Assembly (NCBI GenBank): GCA_030696045.1
Contig: JAUYNO010000055.1
Location: 46,175-110,174, forward strand
Length of the DNA stretch: 64,000 nucleotides
DNA from: Stagnimonas sp.
GTDB taxonomy: Bacteria > Pseudomonadota > Gammaproteobacteria > Nevskiales > Nevskiaceae
Direction of reading: 5' to 3'
Shown here: positions 6,801 through 37,690 of the stretch, one piece after another
Layout of the letters: the number at the start of each line of letters is the position of its first letter
Numbering within the stretch: position 1 is the first letter of the stretch
Program-made: the position numbers and the translations under genes
The notes under the pieces: model-generated
Database searches by the model: none
Told to the model about the DNA's origin: nothing
The model's input: the letters and a program-made list of their open reading frames with translations, nothing else

Positions 6801-8504
6801 ATGCGCCAACTGCTCTGCCTGCTACTTGTCGCCACCACCCTGCCCGCCCTGGCCGGTGATCGGGTCACCGGGCGCGGCTTCGCCAGCCGCAGCGAGGTGA
6901 TCGCCCTGCACGGCATGGCGGCGACCAGCCATCCGCTCGCCACCAATGCCGCGCTCGACATCCTCAAGGCCGGCGGCAGCGCGGTGGATGCCGCCATCGC
7001 CGCCAATGCCATGCTCGGTCTGGTCGAACCGACCGGCAATGGCGTCGGCGGCGACCTGTTCGCCATCGTCTGGGATGCGCGCACACGGCGGCTCCACGGG
7101 CTCAACGCAAGCGGTCGCTCGCCCAAGAGCCTGTCGCTGGAAAAGCTGCGCGAACTGCTGAAGGCGCAAGGCCTGGAGCGGCTGCCTCCGCTGGGGCCGC
7201 TGCCGGTCAGCGTGCCGGGCTGCGTCGACGGCTGGTTCGAGCTGCACGACCGGTTCGGCCGGCTGCCGATGAAGAAAATCCTGGCTCCCGCCATCCGCAC
7301 CGCCCGCGAGGGTCATCCGGTCAGCGAGCTGATTGCCTACTACTGGGGTCGCAGCCTGCCGAGGCTGTCGAAGTTCCCGGGCTACACCGAACAGATGACG
7401 CTGGCCGGCAAGGCGCCGAAGAAGGGCGAAATCTGGAAGAACCCGAATCTCGCCAACACCCTAGACACCATCGCCAGGGGCGGTCGCAAGGCCTTCTATC
7501 AGGGCGAGATCGCCAGGACGATTGCCGACTACCTGCAGGCGCAGGGCGGCTATCTATCGACCGAGGACCTCGCCAGTCACCGGAGCGAATGGGTAGAGCC
7601 GGTCTCGACCAACTATCGCGGCTACGAGGTCTGGGAACTGCCACCCAACTCGCAGGGCATTGCCGCGCTGCAGATGCTCAACCTGCTCGAAGCCTACGAC
7701 CTGGCCAAGGCCGGCTTCGGCAGTCCGGAGCACCTGCACTGGTTCATCGAGGCCAAGAAGATCGCCTTCGAGGACCGGGCGAAGTTCTATGCCGATCCGG
7801 CCTTCAACCAGTTGCCGGTCGCCGATCTCATCAGCAAGCCCTACGCCGAGCAGCGCCGCAAGCTGCTCGACCCGGCCAGGGCCGCCAAGCACTTCGACGC
7901 CGGCAATCCAGCCCTGCGCCAGGGCGACACCATCTACCTCACCACCGCCGACGCCGAGGGCAATATGGTGTCGCTGATCCAGAGCAACTATCGCGGCATG
8001 GGCAGCGGCATGACCCCGCCAGGCCTGGGCTTCATCCTGCAGGACCGGGGCGAAATGTTCAGCCTGGAAGATGGCCACGCCAACGTCTACGCACCGGGCA
8101 AGCGGCCGTTCCAGACCATCATCCCGGCCTTCATCACCAAGGACGGTTTACCCTGGGTCAGCTTCGGCGTGATGGGCGGCGACATGCAGCCGCAGGGCCA
8201 TGTGCAGATCGTGCTGAACCTGATCGACTTCGGCATGAACCTGCAGGAAGCCGGCGACGCGCCGCGCATCTACCACACCGGGTCGAGTGAACCCACTGGC
8301 GAGCGGATGACGGATGGCGGGGTGGTGAATCTGGAGAGCGGCTTTCCGCCCGAATCGGTGCGCAGCCTGCTCGACAAGGGCCACAAGCTCGGCTGGGACC
8401 TGGGCGGCTATGGCGGCTATCAGGCGATCCTGCGTGACCCCAAGACCGGCGCCTACTACGGGGCTTCGGAGTCGCGGAAGGATGGGATGGCGGCGGGGTA
8501 TTGA
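6801..8504 (+). CDS. ggt: Gamma-glutamyltransferase family protein, exported
   Basis: Signal peptide; GGSAVDAAIA, GVGGDLF, the autocleavage Thr in GDTIYLTTADAEGNMVSLIQS, PGKRPFQT, GVMGGDMQPQGH. Confidence 0.92.
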   Translation: MRQLLCLLLVATTLPALAGDRVTGRGFASRSEVIALHGMAATSHPLATNAALDILKAGGSAVDAAIAANAMLGLVEPTGNGVGGDLFAIVWDARTRRLHGLNASGRSPKSLSLEKLRELLKAQGLERLPPLGPLPVSVPGCVDGWFELHDRFGRLPMKKILAPAIRTAREGHPVSELIAYYWGRSLPRLSKFPGYTEQMTLAGKAPKKGEIWKNPNLANTLDTIARGGRKAFYQGEIARTIADYLQAQGGYLSTEDLASHRSEWVEPVSTNYRGYEVWELPPNSQGIAALQMLNLLEAYDLAKAGFGSPEHLHWFIEAKKIAFEDRAKFYADPAFNQLPVADLISKPYAEQRRKLLDPARAAKHFDAGNPALRQGDTIYLTTADAEGNMVSLIQSNYRGMGSGMTPPGLGFILQDRGEMFSLEDGHANVYAPGKRPFQTIIPAFITKDGLPWVSFGVMGGDMQPQGHVQIVLNLIDFGMNLQEAGDAPRIYHTGSSEPTGERMTDGGVVNLESGFPPESVRSLLDKGHKLGWDLGGYGGYQAILRDPKTGAYYGASESRKDGMAAGY

Positions 8505-8508
8505 AACA

Positions 8509-8964
8509 ATGGCCAATCCCTTGCGGGAAGCGGTGAAGCGCCGCTTCTACCCTTTCGCTGAGTCAAGCGGCTTTCTGCGCGCGAAGTCGAGCCATCCGCA
8601 TTTCACAAGCTTTCGGCGGGTGCGCGGCGACATCGCTCAAGTCTTCGACATTCAGTGGGACAAGTACGGCCGGCCCAGTTTCGTGATCAACTTCGGCGAG
8701 GTCTGCCTGAATGAGCCGGAGTCATCCGCCGCCGCCGTCGAGACCCAACACTGCCCGGCCCTGCTCCGCCTGATACCCGACAAGGGCAGCCCGCGATGGT
8801 GGCGCCTCCGGAAACCGTGGCTTGAAGCGCTGGCGACCGGCCGCCTCAGGCACGAACCCAACGACGTGGTGGATCAGGTCATCACCTATTTCATGGAAGC
8901 CGAGACCTGGTGGGCCGAGAAGGTCGAAGGACCTCACGTTCGGCTGCAGTGGCGCATTCGCTGA
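8509..8964 (+). CDS. Hypothetical protein (DUF4304-like)
   Basis: ATG 8509 lies 4 bp after the ggt stop. 151 aa with FRRVRGDIAQVFDIQWDKYGRPSFVINFG, resembling DUF4304-type proteins; codon usage looks less GC-biased than its neighbours. Confidence 0.55.
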   Translation: MANPLREAVKRRFYPFAESSGFLRAKSSHPHFTSFRRVRGDIAQVFDIQWDKYGRPSFVINFGEVCLNEPESSAAAVETQHCPALLRLIPDKGSPRWWRLRKPWLEALATGRLRHEPNDVVDQVITYFMEAETWWAEKVEGPHVRLQWRIR

Positions 8965-9068
8965 CAAGCGATCACGGCCGACCTGGAACCTCCGCTGTCT
9001 CCGCGCAGCAAGGTGGGTGCAGCGTAGCGGACCCGCCCTGCGCGCTTGAACGATGACAACGAGCGAAG

Positions 9069-9084
9069 TGGCAAGCTTTTCGCT
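9069..9084 (+). promoter_or_regulatory. Putative sigma54 (-24/-12) promoter
   Basis: TGGCAAGCTTTTCGCT has GG and GC at the canonical spacing of TGGCAC-N5-TTGC and lies 45 bp upstream of ATG 9129. Confidence 0.5.
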
Positions 9085-9128
9085 AGCCTGACGAGGTTGT
9101 CATCCTCTCCATCAACCTGGACTCACTC

Positions 9129-9275
9129 ATGCGCAAACTTCTGCTCGCCGGCCTGATCGCCGCCTCCGTTGCCGCCCCGACCGCCGCCTTCGCTGCCATC
9201 GGTCCGGACAGCCTGGCCTACTGCGACATCCTGGAATGGCTCGGCTTCGTCAACGTCATGGCCTGCGAAGGCTAA
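9129..9275 (+). CDS. Small secreted peptide (48 aa): signal peptide plus 26-aa mature part with two Cys
   Basis: Below the ORF-track cutoff: MRKLLLAGLIAASVAAPTAAFA|AIGPDSLAYCDILEWLGFVNVMACEG*. Clean n/h/c signal regions with an AFA cleavage site and GC3-rich codons. Confidence 0.65.
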   Translation: MRKLLLAGLIAASVAAPTAAFAAIGPDSLAYCDILEWLGFVNVMACEG

Positions 9276-9304
9276 AAGCGGCAAGGCCGCGGCGCTGGGG
9301 CAAC

Positions 9305-10669
9305 TCAGCGTCGCGGCATCATGCCCGGCGGCAGCTTGCCGGCCAGCGAGCGCATCATCTTCGCCATGCCGCCACCGGCCATCTTCTTCATCATGTCGCG
9401 GGTCTGGTCGAACTGGCGTAGCAGCTGATTGACCTGCTGCACTTCAACGCCCGATCCGGCGGCGATGCGCCGCTTGCGGCTGGCCTTGATGAGGTCCGGA
9501 AACTGGCGCTCCTGCACGGTCATCGAGTTGATGATGGCGACCGTGCGCTTGATCTGTTTCTCGGGATTGGCCTGCTTGAGCTGGGCCTGCATGTTGGCGC
9601 CACCGGGCAGCTTCTCCAGCATCGACTCGATGCCGCCCATGTTCTGCATCTGCACCATCTGCTCGCGGAAGTCGGCGAGGTCGAAGCCCTTCTTGCTGCG
9701 GAGCTTGGCAGCGAGCTTGGCGGCCTTCTCGGTATCGACCCGCTGCACCGTCTCCTCGATCAGGCTGAGCATGTCGCCCTGGCCGAGGATGCGCGCCGCG
9801 ATGCGGTCCGGGTGGAAGACTTCGAGTTTGTCGCTCTTCTCGCCGACGCCGATGAACTTGATCGGCGCGCCGGTCACCTGCCGCACGCTCAGCGCCGCGC
9901 CACCGCGCGAGTCGCCGTCGGCCTTGGTGAGCACGACGCCGGTCAGCGGCACGCGGTCGGCGAAGGCGCGCGCGGTGCGGGCGGCGTCCTGGCCGGTCAT
10001 TGCATCGACCACGAACAGGGTCTCGACCGGATTGAGCGCGGCATGCAGGCCGGCCAATTCGACCATCATCTCCTCGTCGACCGTGGTACGGCCGGCGGTG
10101 TCGACGATCAGCACGTCGGCGAAGGATTTTTTGGCGTGCTCGACGGCGGCGCGGGCGATGGACTCGGGCGTCTGGCCGACTTCGGACGGGAAGAACTCCA
10201 CCCCCACCTGCCCCGCGACGATGCGCAGCTGCTCGATGGCGGCCGGACGGTAGACGTCGCAGGAGACGACGATGACGTTCTTCTTCTCACGCTCCTTCAG
10301 CAGCTTCGCCAGCTTGCCGACGGTGGTGGTCTTGCCGGCACCCTGCAGGCCGGCCATCAGCAGGATGGCGGGCGGCTGGGCGCGCAGGTTGAGCGGCACC
10401 ACTTCGCCGCCCAGGGTTTCGGTAAGCGCCTGCTGCACCATGCGCAGGAAGGCCTGGCCCGGCGTGAGGCTCTGGCTGATCTCGACGCCGAGAGCCTTGG
10501 CCTTCACCGACTCGATGAAGGTCTTGATGACCGGCAGGGCGACGTCGGCTTCCAGCAGCGCCATGCGCAGCTCGCGCGCGGCACCGTTGATCTGGTCTTC
10601 GGTCAGGCGACCCTGGCCGCGCAGGCTGTCGAGAACGCCGGACAGGCGCTGGCTGAGTGATTCAAACAT
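9305..10669 (-). CDS. ffh: Signal recognition particle protein Ffh
   Basis: MFESLSQRL start, GLQGAGKTT, DTAGR, TKADGDSRGG, Met-rich M domain with SRKRRIAAGSG. Confidence 0.98.
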   Translation of the reverse strand: MFESLSQRLSGVLDSLRGQGRLTEDQINGAARELRMALLEADVALPVIKTFIESVKAKALGVEISQSLTPGQAFLRMVQQALTETLGGEVVPLNLRAQPPAILLMAGLQGAGKTTTVGKLAKLLKEREKKNVIVVSCDVYRPAAIEQLRIVAGQVGVEFFPSEVGQTPESIARAAVEHAKKSFADVLIVDTAGRTTVDEEMMVELAGLHAALNPVETLFVVDAMTGQDAARTARAFADRVPLTGVVLTKADGDSRGGAALSVRQVTGAPIKFIGVGEKSDKLEVFHPDRIAARILGQGDMLSLIEETVQRVDTEKAAKLAAKLRSKKGFDLADFREQMVQMQNMGGIESMLEKLPGGANMQAQLKQANPEKQIKRTVAIINSMTVQERQFPDLIKASRKRRIAAGSGVEVQQVNQLLRQFDQTRDMMKKMAGGGMAKMMRSLAGKLPPGMMPRR

Positions 10670-37605: not shown

Positions 37606-37690
37606 GCCGAGATGGCGGAATTGGTAGACGCACCAGTTTCAGGTACTGGCGAGTAACATCGTGGAGGTTCGAGTCCTCTTCTCGGCACCA
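37606..37690 (+). tRNA. tRNA-Leu (CAG)
   Basis: 85 nt; acceptor stem GCCGAGA/TCTCGGC plus ACCA, D-loop GG, anticodon arm CCAGT-TTCAGGT-ACTGG, long variable arm, T-loop GTTCGAG. Confidence 0.97.

What the first reader, a model, noticed from the sequence alone, without database searches (positions are those of the whole stretch)
9052..9275. Unannotated sigma54-driven secreted two-cysteine micropeptide
Seen: a 48-aa ORF missed by the ORF track, with a textbook Sec signal (MRKLLLAGLIAASVAAPTAAFA) and mature peptide AIGPDSLAYCDILEWLGFVNVMACEG. A -24/-12 element lies 45 bp upstream, embedded in a long imperfect hairpin (GATGACAAC 9052 / GTTGTCATC 9096; AGCGAA/TTCGCT). Inference: a disulfide-looped amphipathic peptide that could act as a signal, a bacteriocin-like peptide or a surface peptide. 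No modifying enzymes are adjacent.
Basis: partly seen in the sequence, partly recalled or inferred. Interest (0 to 1): 0.68.

Follow-up and report, generated by a model that had tools for sequence, protein, structure and literature searches.

The report
Small secreted two-cysteine peptide gene
The 48-codon ORF is a real, conserved gene for a small exported peptide with one probable disulfide loop, probably driven by a sigma-54-type promoter; it belongs to an unnamed family of hypothetical secreted peptides and its function is still unknown.

Summary
The ORF at 9129-9275 is real. Profile searches found about 30 homologous protein clusters of 48-102 aa, all called "hypothetical". Every one has an N-terminal signal peptide and the core C-[DE]-[ILV]-x3-[LI]-G-x3-V-x2-C. 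The closest relatives show coding-type evolution: dN/dS is 0.1-0.3, GC3 is 0.85-0.94, and variable columns by codon position are 12/6/29.

The window comes from an uncultured groundwater member of Nevskiaceae (Gammaproteobacteria).

The -24/-12 element TGGCAAGCTTTTCGC (9069-9083) is not remarkable as a motif, but it is a conserved island. It is 87-100% identical in four lineages at a fixed 45-51 nt from the ATG, while both flanks have diverged and different genes lie upstream. It matches 9 of the 11 specified bases of the sigma-54 consensus and shares TTTCGCT with E. coli glnAp2. Transcription could not be tested because no RNA data exist.

The flanking hairpin exists only in this window's lineage and is probably incidental.

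There are no neighbouring modification, export or immunity genes, and the mature peptide is anionic, so a bacteriocin or RiPP is unlikely.

Verdict: a new, uncharacterised family of Sec-exported peptides with a probable disulfide staple. Interest is modest.

The parts
9069..9084 (+). Sigma-54-type -24/-12 promoter element TGGCAAGCTTTTCGCT (GG 9070-71, GC 9082-83)
   Evidence: It is 87-100% identical in four lineages while the flanks are 50-78% and 53-73% identical. It matches 9 of 11 consensus bases of TGGCACG-N4-TTGC (consensus from PMC3224663). The -12 half, TTTCGCT, is identical to that of E. coli glnAp2.
9095..9095 (+). Predicted transcription start (inferred, about 12 nt after the GC doublet), giving a 5' UTR of about 34 nt
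   Evidence: Inference from sigma-54 promoter geometry. Not tested, because no RNA runs hold the locus.
9052..9104 (+). Imperfect hairpin enclosing the promoter element (arms 9052-9060 and 9096-9104); lineage-specific and probably incidental
   Evidence: z = -2.1 in the window but not significant in L088, L007, L002 or L089. The upstream arm lies in DNA that only this lineage has.
9118..9122 (+). Shine-Dalgarno-like TGGAC (GGAG in relatives), 7 nt before the ATG
   Evidence: G120, G121 and A122 are invariant in alignment A3.
9129..9194 (+). Signal peptide (22 aa, MRKLLLAGLIAASVAAPTAAFA): n-region RK, hydrophobic h-region, Pro at -6, A-F-A before the predicted signal peptidase I cut
   Evidence: Read from the sequence. 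The same architecture is kept in 31 family members. No SignalP-type tool was available.
9195..9272 (+). Mature 26-aa peptide AIGPDSLAYCDILEWLGFVNVMACEG, net charge about -4; Cys32 at 9222-9224 and Cys46 at 9264-9266 (C-x13-C)
   Evidence: C32, G39, V43 and C46 are invariant, and L38 and E47 at least 90% conserved, in 31 sequences. AlphaFold2 gives a helix at residues 31-38, a turn at G39 and a short helical turn at 44-46, with pLDDT about 84 for residues 31-40.
9273..9275 (+). Stop codon TAA
9286..9317 (.). 14-bp G+C-rich stem-loop between the convergent peptide gene and ffh (terminator-like; overlaps the last ffh codons)
   Evidence: -37.6 kcal/mol, z = -4.6. A strong hairpin of different sequence follows the stop codon in L003, L007 and L092; a T-run follows it in L007 and L092.

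Best explanation
This is a stand-alone, monocistronic gene for a 48-aa precursor.

Supported by the data: the gene is real and under purifying selection. It belongs to an unnamed family of small secreted Cys peptides found in uncultured Nevskiaceae/Solimonas and other high-G+C soil and groundwater bacteria. The family core is C-[DE]-[ILV]-x3-[LI]-G-x3-V-x2-C. In this clade the gene carries its own conserved -24/-12 element and a terminator-like hairpin.

Inferred: the precursor is exported by Sec and cut by signal peptidase I after A-F-A. The two invariant cysteines are oxidised in the periplasm, presumably by DsbA, to staple a short helix (YCDILEWL) through a Gly turn onto the C-terminal VMAC segment. 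The product would be a 26-aa anionic looped mini-protein.

Inferred: transcription is conditional. It would come from RNA polymerase with sigma-54 plus an unidentified enhancer-binding activator and would start near 9095.

Most likely role (weakest step): an extracytoplasmic ligand or accessory peptide that binds a partner in the cell envelope through its conserved acidic and aromatic helix face (D33, E36, W37, L38). It is less likely to be a toxin.
For: Gene and family:
- Homologues at 81-94% identity, and more distant ones found by profile searches.
- A 31-sequence alignment has C32, G39, V43 and C46 invariant.
- Every member has an even number of Cys (2, 4 or 6) in the mature part.
- dN/dS is 0.1-0.3 and GC3 is 0.85-0.94; codon-position variation is 12/6/29.

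Stand-alone unit:
- Neighbours differ between lineages: GGT, a DUF4304-like ORF, DUF3667, PAS-GGDEF-EAL, integrase/MFS, fatty-acid hydroxylase/SDR, tRNAs.
- Every lineage folded (window, L003, L007, L092) has a strong hairpin after the stop codon.

Promoter:
- The 15-nt element is 87-100% identical in four lineages and sits 45-51 nt from the ATG, while the 5' UTR is 53-73% identical.
- It stays with the peptide gene when different genes are inserted upstream.
- It matches 9 of 11 bases of the consensus TGGCACG-N4-TTGC, the same score as the validated Xylella glnA promoter.
- Its -12 half equals that of E. coli glnAp2.
- No sigma-70-like promoter was found in 8800-9500.

Structure: AlphaFold2 with the 31-sequence alignment gives a helix at 31-38 and pLDDT about 84 in the core.
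Against: - No transcript or peptide data exist.
- The motif alone is not enriched in the window.
- The base at -14 is C, not the consensus T.
- The element is absent upstream of distant family members (L092, L098, L101, L102).
- There is no rpoN or GAFTGA activator gene in the 64 kb.
- The different upstream contexts share no activator-site motif.
- Signal-peptide cleavage was judged by rule, not by a predictor.
- AlphaFold2 confidence is only moderate overall (74), and the Cys-Cys distance could not be read out.
- Nothing identifies a binding partner.
- Whether the peptide leaves the periplasm is unknown.
Confidence: 0.5

Rival explanations
1. The conserved TGGCA-N7-GC island is not a sigma-54 promoter. 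It would instead be the binding site of another regulator or part of another promoter type, and the peptide gene would be transcribed by a sigma-70-family holoenzyme or by read-through from the upstream gene on the same strand.
For: The motif is not enriched over chance. All four spacer bases are also conserved, which sigma-54 does not require. No activator gene, rpoN or shared upstream site was found. Distant family members lack the element. The upstream gene is on the same strand, only 75-165 nt away.
Against: The GG and GC doublets are invariant at exactly the sigma-54 spacing in all four lineages, and the only variable positions (6 and 13) lie outside the two doublets. The -12 half is identical to glnAp2. 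No sigma-70-type hexamer pair is present. The element travels with the peptide gene when the upstream gene changes.
Confidence: 0.3
2. The mature peptide is a diffusible cell-to-cell signal: a Sec-exported, disulfide-cyclised pheromone sensed by a membrane receptor.
For: It is small and has a single conserved loop. It is clade-specific, with variable residues at a few positions (27, 41-42 and the C-terminal tail) beside an invariant core. It is apparently under conditional control.
Against: No receptor or kinase gene is linked in any context. A 2.8-kDa peptide has no evident route across the outer membrane. Nothing distinguishes this role from an envelope-resident one.
Confidence: 0.12
3. It is a bacteriocin- or microcin-like antimicrobial peptide.
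For: It is a small, ribosomally made, exported peptide with a disulfide. It has a patchy distribution: it is absent from the Nevskiaceae MAG L057, where the GGT and ffh stop codons are 7 bp apart.
Against: The mature peptides are all anionic (-2 to -4, read). There is no double-glycine leader. No ABC/C39 exporter, immunity gene or modifying enzyme lies nearby in any of at least 8 contexts. The gene is single-copy and under purifying rather than diversifying selection.
Confidence: 0.07
4. The ORF is a chance open frame and the conservation reflects something else, such as the opposite-strand ORF 9123-9284 or an RNA.
For: It is very short. High-G+C DNA carries many spurious ORFs on both strands.
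Against: Substitutions concentrate at third positions of this frame (12/6/29) and dN/dS is 0.1-0.3. Protein-level homologues remain recognisable at only 37-53% identity and in unrelated genomic contexts. There is no Rfam match.
Confidence: 0.02

Closest known systems
Sigma-54 (-24/-12) promoters, e.g. E. coli glnAp2 (TGGCACAGATTTCGCT) and Xylella fastidiosa glnA (TGGTATG-N4-TTGC)
   Same: The GG and GC doublets are one helical turn apart. The TGGCA and TTTCGCT halves are identical to glnAp2. The match is 9 of 11 consensus bases, as for the validated Xylella promoter, whose start is also about 35 nt before the ATG.
   Different: There is no identified enhancer-binding protein, upstream activator site or rpoN in the window. 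No experimental start site is known. The promoter drives a 48-codon secreted-peptide gene rather than a nitrogen, stress or motility operon.
Sec-dependent, DsbA-oxidised small peptides of Gram-negative bacteria, e.g. E. coli heat-stable enterotoxin STb (from general knowledge: 71-aa precursor, Sec signal, disulfides formed in the periplasm)
   Same: Both are short precursors with a classical cleavable signal peptide and a mature peptide whose fold depends on intramolecular disulfide(s). Neither has a dedicated modification gene.
   Different: There is no sequence or fold similarity (Pfam, PDB sequence and Foldseek searches all empty). This peptide has one disulfide, is anionic, comes from an environmental bacterium, and has no evidence of toxicity or of export beyond the periplasm.
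Class II microcins and Sec-dependent class II bacteriocins (e.g. microcin V, enterocin P; from general knowledge)
   Same: All are unmodified ribosomal peptides with a disulfide. Enterocin P also uses a Sec signal.
   Different: There is no double-glycine leader, no ABC/C39 exporter and no immunity gene. The peptide has a net negative charge and is under purifying selection.
MgrB-type small envelope regulators (from general knowledge: 47 aa, a periplasmic Cys pair needed for binding PhoQ)
   Same: Similar size, a conserved periplasmic Cys pair, a stand-alone gene and conditional expression. This is the model for the 'binds an envelope partner' reading.
   Different: MgrB keeps an uncleaved membrane anchor, whereas this peptide has a conserved A-x-A cleavage site. 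There is no sequence similarity, and no partner is known.

Membership tests
Sigma-54-dependent promoter | GG (-24) and GC (-12) doublets with fixed spacing, matching TGGCACG-N4-TTGC | tested here: met
   TGGCAAG-N4-TCGC at 9069-9083 matches 9 of 11 bases (consensus from PMC3224663). The -12 half equals that of glnAp2.
Sigma-54-dependent promoter | Element conserved at a fixed distance in orthologous loci | tested here: met
   It is 87-100% identical and 45-51 nt from the ATG in four lineages whose flanks have diverged. It is absent in distant family members.
Sigma-54-dependent promoter | rpoN and a cognate enhancer-binding protein with its upstream binding site | tested here: inconclusive
   No RpoN box or GAFTGA motif occurs in the 64-kb window. 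No motif is shared upstream across contexts. The rest of the genome is not available.
Sigma-54-dependent promoter | rpoN-dependent transcription start about 12 nt downstream of the GC | not testable with these tools
   No RNA runs contain the locus.
Sec / signal peptidase I signal peptide | Positive n-region, 10-15-residue hydrophobic h-region, c-region with small residues at -3 and -1 | tested here: met
   MRK / LLLAGLIAASVAA / PTAAFA then A. The same plan is kept in 31 homologues although the sequence varies. Judged by rule; no predictor was available.
Sec / signal peptidase I signal peptide | Experimental export and cleavage | not testable with these tools
   Needs PhoA fusions or mass spectrometry.
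Bacterial lipoprotein (e.g. entericidins) | Lipobox L-[AS]-[GA]-C at the end of the signal peptide | tested here: not met
   There is no Cys in the signal peptide of the window protein. The Cys at position 8 in P0005 and P0007 lies too close to the N-terminus.
Class II microcin / bacteriocin | Double-glycine leader with a linked ABC/C39 exporter and an immunity gene | tested here: not met
   The leader is Sec-type. No such genes occur in any of at least 8 contexts.
RiPP precursor | Adjacent modifying enzyme(s) and a non-Sec leader | tested here: not met
   The neighbours are GGT, a DUF4304-like ORF and ffh, and they vary between lineages.
Pfam DUF7155 | Score at or above the gathering threshold (27 bits) | tested here: not met
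   14.6 bits, E = 0.039, over the signal-peptide half. Only 3 of 14 members give even a weak hit.
Unnamed family defined here (C-[DE]-[ILV]-x3-[LI]-G-x3-V-x2-C secreted peptides) | Signal peptide plus a C-terminal C-x13-C core with invariant G and V | tested here: met
   The window protein scores 88.5 bits (E = 2e-25) against the family HMM, although that HMM includes the window sequence itself. The independent evidence is the alignment A6 and the database hits.

The most novel reading that the evidence does not exclude
The peptide is a Sec-exported, disulfide-cyclised peptide signal of a Gram-negative bacterium. It would be produced under sigma-54/activator control and sensed by an unlinked envelope receptor. 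Its relatives with 4 and 6 Cys in other high-G+C bacteria would then be multi-module versions of the same signalling scaffold.
Probability: 0.1. Interest if true: 0.7.

Novelty: new member of a known kind. Interest (0 to 1): 0.3.

Why it matters
The finding adds a defined family of very small secreted bacterial proteins that current family databases miss. The family has about 30 sequence clusters, an invariant C-x13-C core and modular versions with 2, 4 or 6 Cys. One clade appears to place it under sigma-54 control, which is an unusual way to express a micropeptide. If a partner or activity were found, it would be a tractable 26-residue scaffold that can be made synthetically. At present it is a well-supported hypothetical gene and not a new mechanism.

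Tried and rejected
- Peptide-pattern scans of GTDB species-representative genomes and of JGI metagenomes found no member of the window's clade.
- 80 ffh loci from representative genomes hold no family member within 3 kb. The closest, Nevskiaceae MAG L057, has GGT and ffh stop codons 7 bp apart.
- Nothing usable came from Rfam, Pfam and NCBIfam, PDB by sequence or Foldseek against PDB.
- No RNA-seq runs were found for the window.
- The flanking hairpin was rejected as a conserved feature.
- The search for a shared upstream activator site or NtrC-like palindrome was negative.
- P0006 resembles the query only in its signal peptide and sits in an unrelated contig, so it was rejected as a homologue.
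- The tandem 54-aa two-Cys peptide in L095-L097 shows no detectable homology to the family (hhalign probability 2.6%).
- A DNA-pattern scan of metagenomes for promoter plus ATGCGCAA returned two unrelated AT-rich loci that simply carry TGGCA-N-GCTTTTTGC motifs, both close matches to the sigma-54 consensus.
- PADLOC gave no hit for the genes inserted upstream.

Full report
**1. What is in the sequence**

- Window 9129-9275 (+) is an ATG-initiated 48-codon ORF encoding MRKLLLAGLIAASVAAPTAAFAAIGPDSLAYCDILEWLGFVNVMACEG.
- It lies in a 340-nt gap. Upstream is a 160-aa ORF (8482-8964, weak DUF4304 match) that follows gamma-glutamyltranspeptidase (GGT, 6801-8504). Downstream is the convergent ffh gene (9305-10669, minus strand).
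- TGGCAAGCTTTTCGC lies at 9069-9083, 45 nt before the ATG.
- The inverted arms GATGACAAC (9052-9060) and GTTGTCATC (9096-9104) are exact.
- The window is 68.9% G+C.
- Its Ffh protein is closest to Nevskiaceae and Nevskia MAGs (84% and 75% identity). The exact DNA occurs only in groundwater metagenomes. The source is therefore an uncultured Nevskiaceae gammaproteobacterium.

**2. The ORF is a real gene**

- A word-indexed search found five homologues of 49-50 aa at 81-94% identity.
- An HMM search of 1.8 billion cluster representatives, plus two profile iterations, extended this to about 30 clusters of 48-102 aa.
- In the 31-sequence alignment, C32, G39, V43 and C46 are invariant and L38 and E47 are nearly so. 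The core is C-[DE]-[ILV]-x3-[LI]-G-x3-V-x2-C-[EDG].
- Among the close relatives, dN/dS is 0.1-0.3 in both the signal and the mature parts. GC3 is 0.85-0.94 against GC2 of about 0.5.
- Variable alignment columns fall 12/6/29 on codon positions 1/2/3.
- The window holds a single copy.
- All members are unnamed or called "hypothetical protein". The only taxon label is Solimonas sp. (HEX4895747.1).
- No Pfam, NCBIfam, PDB or Foldseek match exists. The DUF7155 hit (14.6 bits, cutoff 27) covers mostly the signal peptide.

**3. Export and fold**

- Every member begins with M-[RKT]-K, a run of 12-18 hydrophobic residues, a Pro, and small residues at -3 and -1 (A-F-A before A in the window). That is the rule-based signature of a Sec / signal peptidase I signal. 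No predictor was available, so this is sequence-rule evidence only.
- There is no lipobox and no twin-arginine motif.
- The mature 26-mer carries four acidic and no basic residues. All family members are net anionic (read).
- Mature regions always contain 2, 4 or 6 Cys. The longer proteins add N-terminal modules (PPGTCDLIKNTMC; VEDVCGIVNDSTFLTC) in front of the same C-terminal core. This fits full disulfide pairing.
- AlphaFold2 with the 31-sequence alignment gives mean pLDDT 74, about 84 over residues 31-40. It shows a helix at 31-38 (YCDILEWL), a turn at the invariant Gly39, and a short helical turn at 44-46.
- The inferred picture is a helix stapled to the C-terminal segment by a Cys32-Cys46 disulfide. 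The Cys-Cys distance could not be read from the tool output.

**4. Genomic context**

- In the closest clade the order is GGT, then the peptide gene, then ffh pointing back toward it (L001-L007, L088).
- The slot between GGT and the peptide is variable. It is empty in most loci, holds the DUF4304-like ORF in the window, and holds a DUF3667 gene in L089 and L090.
- A Nevskiaceae MAG (L057) has GGT and ffh stop codons 7 bp apart and no peptide gene.
- More distant members sit next to PAS-GGDEF-EAL and ffh (L095-97), integrase and an MFS transporter (L092), a fatty-acid hydroxylase and an SDR (L098), tRNAs and an SDR (L101), or BTAD-LuxR and M23 peptidase genes in a 75% G+C contig (L102).
- No modifying enzyme, exporter, immunity gene or receptor recurs.
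- A strong stem-loop follows the stop codon in each lineage folded (window, L003, L007, L092), each time with a different sequence (z from -3.1 to -5.7). It is followed by a T-run in L007 and L092.
- The gene is therefore a self-contained unit.

**5. The promoter**

- On its own the motif proves nothing. With up to 2 mismatches to TGGCACGNNNNTTGCW the window has 7 matches against 13 expected.
- The evidence is comparative. Four lineages were compared: window/L088, L007, L003/L002 and L089.
  - The element reads TGGCA[A/G]GCTTTT[C/G]GC and is 87-100% identical between them.
  - It always lies 45-51 nt from the ATG.
  - By contrast, the 5' UTR is 53-73% identical, the upstream 40 nt are 50-78% identical, and CDS third positions are 58-75% identical.
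- The GG and GC doublets never change.
- The island starts exactly where upstream similarity ends, and it stays with the peptide gene when the upstream gene differs.
- My rough estimate, not a computed statistic, is that such an island would arise by chance in a roughly 60-nt leader at about 1 in 1000 or less.
- The element matches 9 of the 11 specified consensus bases, the same as the experimentally validated Xylella glnA promoter, whose start is 35 nt before the ATG (PMC3224663).
- Its TGGCA and TTTCGCT halves are identical to E. coli glnAp2, read directly from MG1655.
- No sigma-70-type hexamer pair is present.
- Points against:
  - There is no rpoN or GAFTGA protein in the window.
  - The three upstream contexts share no motif.
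  - The element is missing in distant members.
  - No RNA data exist.
- In L095-97 a different sigma-54-like site (TGGCATGCAAGCTGC) lies about 120 nt upstream of a tandem pair of small secreted two-Cys peptide genes, the second of which is the family member. This is suggestive, but it is one lineage only.
- I put sigma-54 dependence in this clade at about 0.6.

**6. The hairpin**

- It folds at -21.6 kcal/mol (z = -2.1; 4 of 200 shuffles fold as well) in the window. The equivalent regions of L088, L007, L002 and L089 are no better than shuffled sequence, and L003 has a different 8-bp pairing that its sister L002 lacks.
- The upstream arm lies in DNA specific to this lineage, next to the inserted ORF.
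- A transcript starting near 9095 would contain only the downstream arm.
- I treat the hairpin as incidental.

**7. Function**

- The data support an exported mini-protein with a probable disulfide staple and conditional expression. They do not reveal an activity.
- A bacteriocin or microcin role is unlikely because of the anionic charge, the Sec leader, the lack of immunity or export genes, and purifying selection.
- A RiPP is excluded by context.
- The remaining readings are an envelope-resident ligand or accessory peptide (my preferred one, by analogy with MgrB-type regulators), a diffusible signal, or a metal- or partner-binding periplasmic peptide. These cannot be separated computationally here.

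**8. Verdict**

- This is a new, uncharacterised family of a familiar kind of gene. Interest is modest unless a partner or activity is found.

Noticed in passing
window 8482-8964 (+): A 160-aa ORF (weak DUF4304 match, E = 4e-4, below the cutoff) is inserted between GGT and the peptide gene and overlaps the GGT 3' end by 23 nt. It is absent from the closest relatives, and L089 and L090 carry a DUF3667 gene at the same spot. The GGT-peptide junction is therefore a variable insertion slot. PADLOC gave no hit.
   Followed up: partly
L095 660-824 (also L096 and L097 2875-3039): A second small secreted two-Cys peptide gene lies directly upstream of the family member: 54 aa, signal peptide then AAAALPTPTFDCITMYFGPLQPLVTAICRLGS, C-x15-C. 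A sigma-54-like TGGCATGCAAGCTGC lies about 120 nt before it. No homology to the family is detectable (hhalign probability 2.6%).
   Followed up: partly
L057 1138-1150: In a Nevskiaceae MAG whose Ffh is 84% identical, the GGT and ffh stop codons are only 7 bp apart and there is no peptide gene. The gene has therefore been gained or lost within the family.
   Followed up: yes
window 9286-9317: A 14-bp G+C-rich stem-loop (-37.6 kcal/mol, z = -4.6) lies between the convergent peptide and ffh genes and overlaps the last ffh codons. Strong hairpins of different sequence occupy the same place in L003, L007 and L092.
   Followed up: yes
L102 6001-6309 and proteins P0015, P0025-P0035: Family members of 68-102 aa add one or two N-terminal Cys-pair modules (4 or 6 Cys) in front of the conserved core. 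One lies in a 75% G+C contig with BTAD-AAA-LuxR, PG-binding/M23 peptidase and PMT_2 genes. This suggests, by inference, that the family reaches beyond Gammaproteobacteria.
   Followed up: partly
L105 6422-6497; L106 2375-2451: A pattern scan for the promoter plus ATGCGCAA hit two unrelated AT-rich metagenome contigs carrying TGGCAGGCTTTTTGCT and TGGCATGCTTTTTGCA upstream of genes. In L106 the gene encodes another signal-peptide protein. They are not homologues of the peptide.
   Followed up: no
window 37606-37690 (+): tRNA-Leu (CAG) is the only structured RNA found in the window by ARAGORN and by Rfam at gathering thresholds.
   Followed up: no
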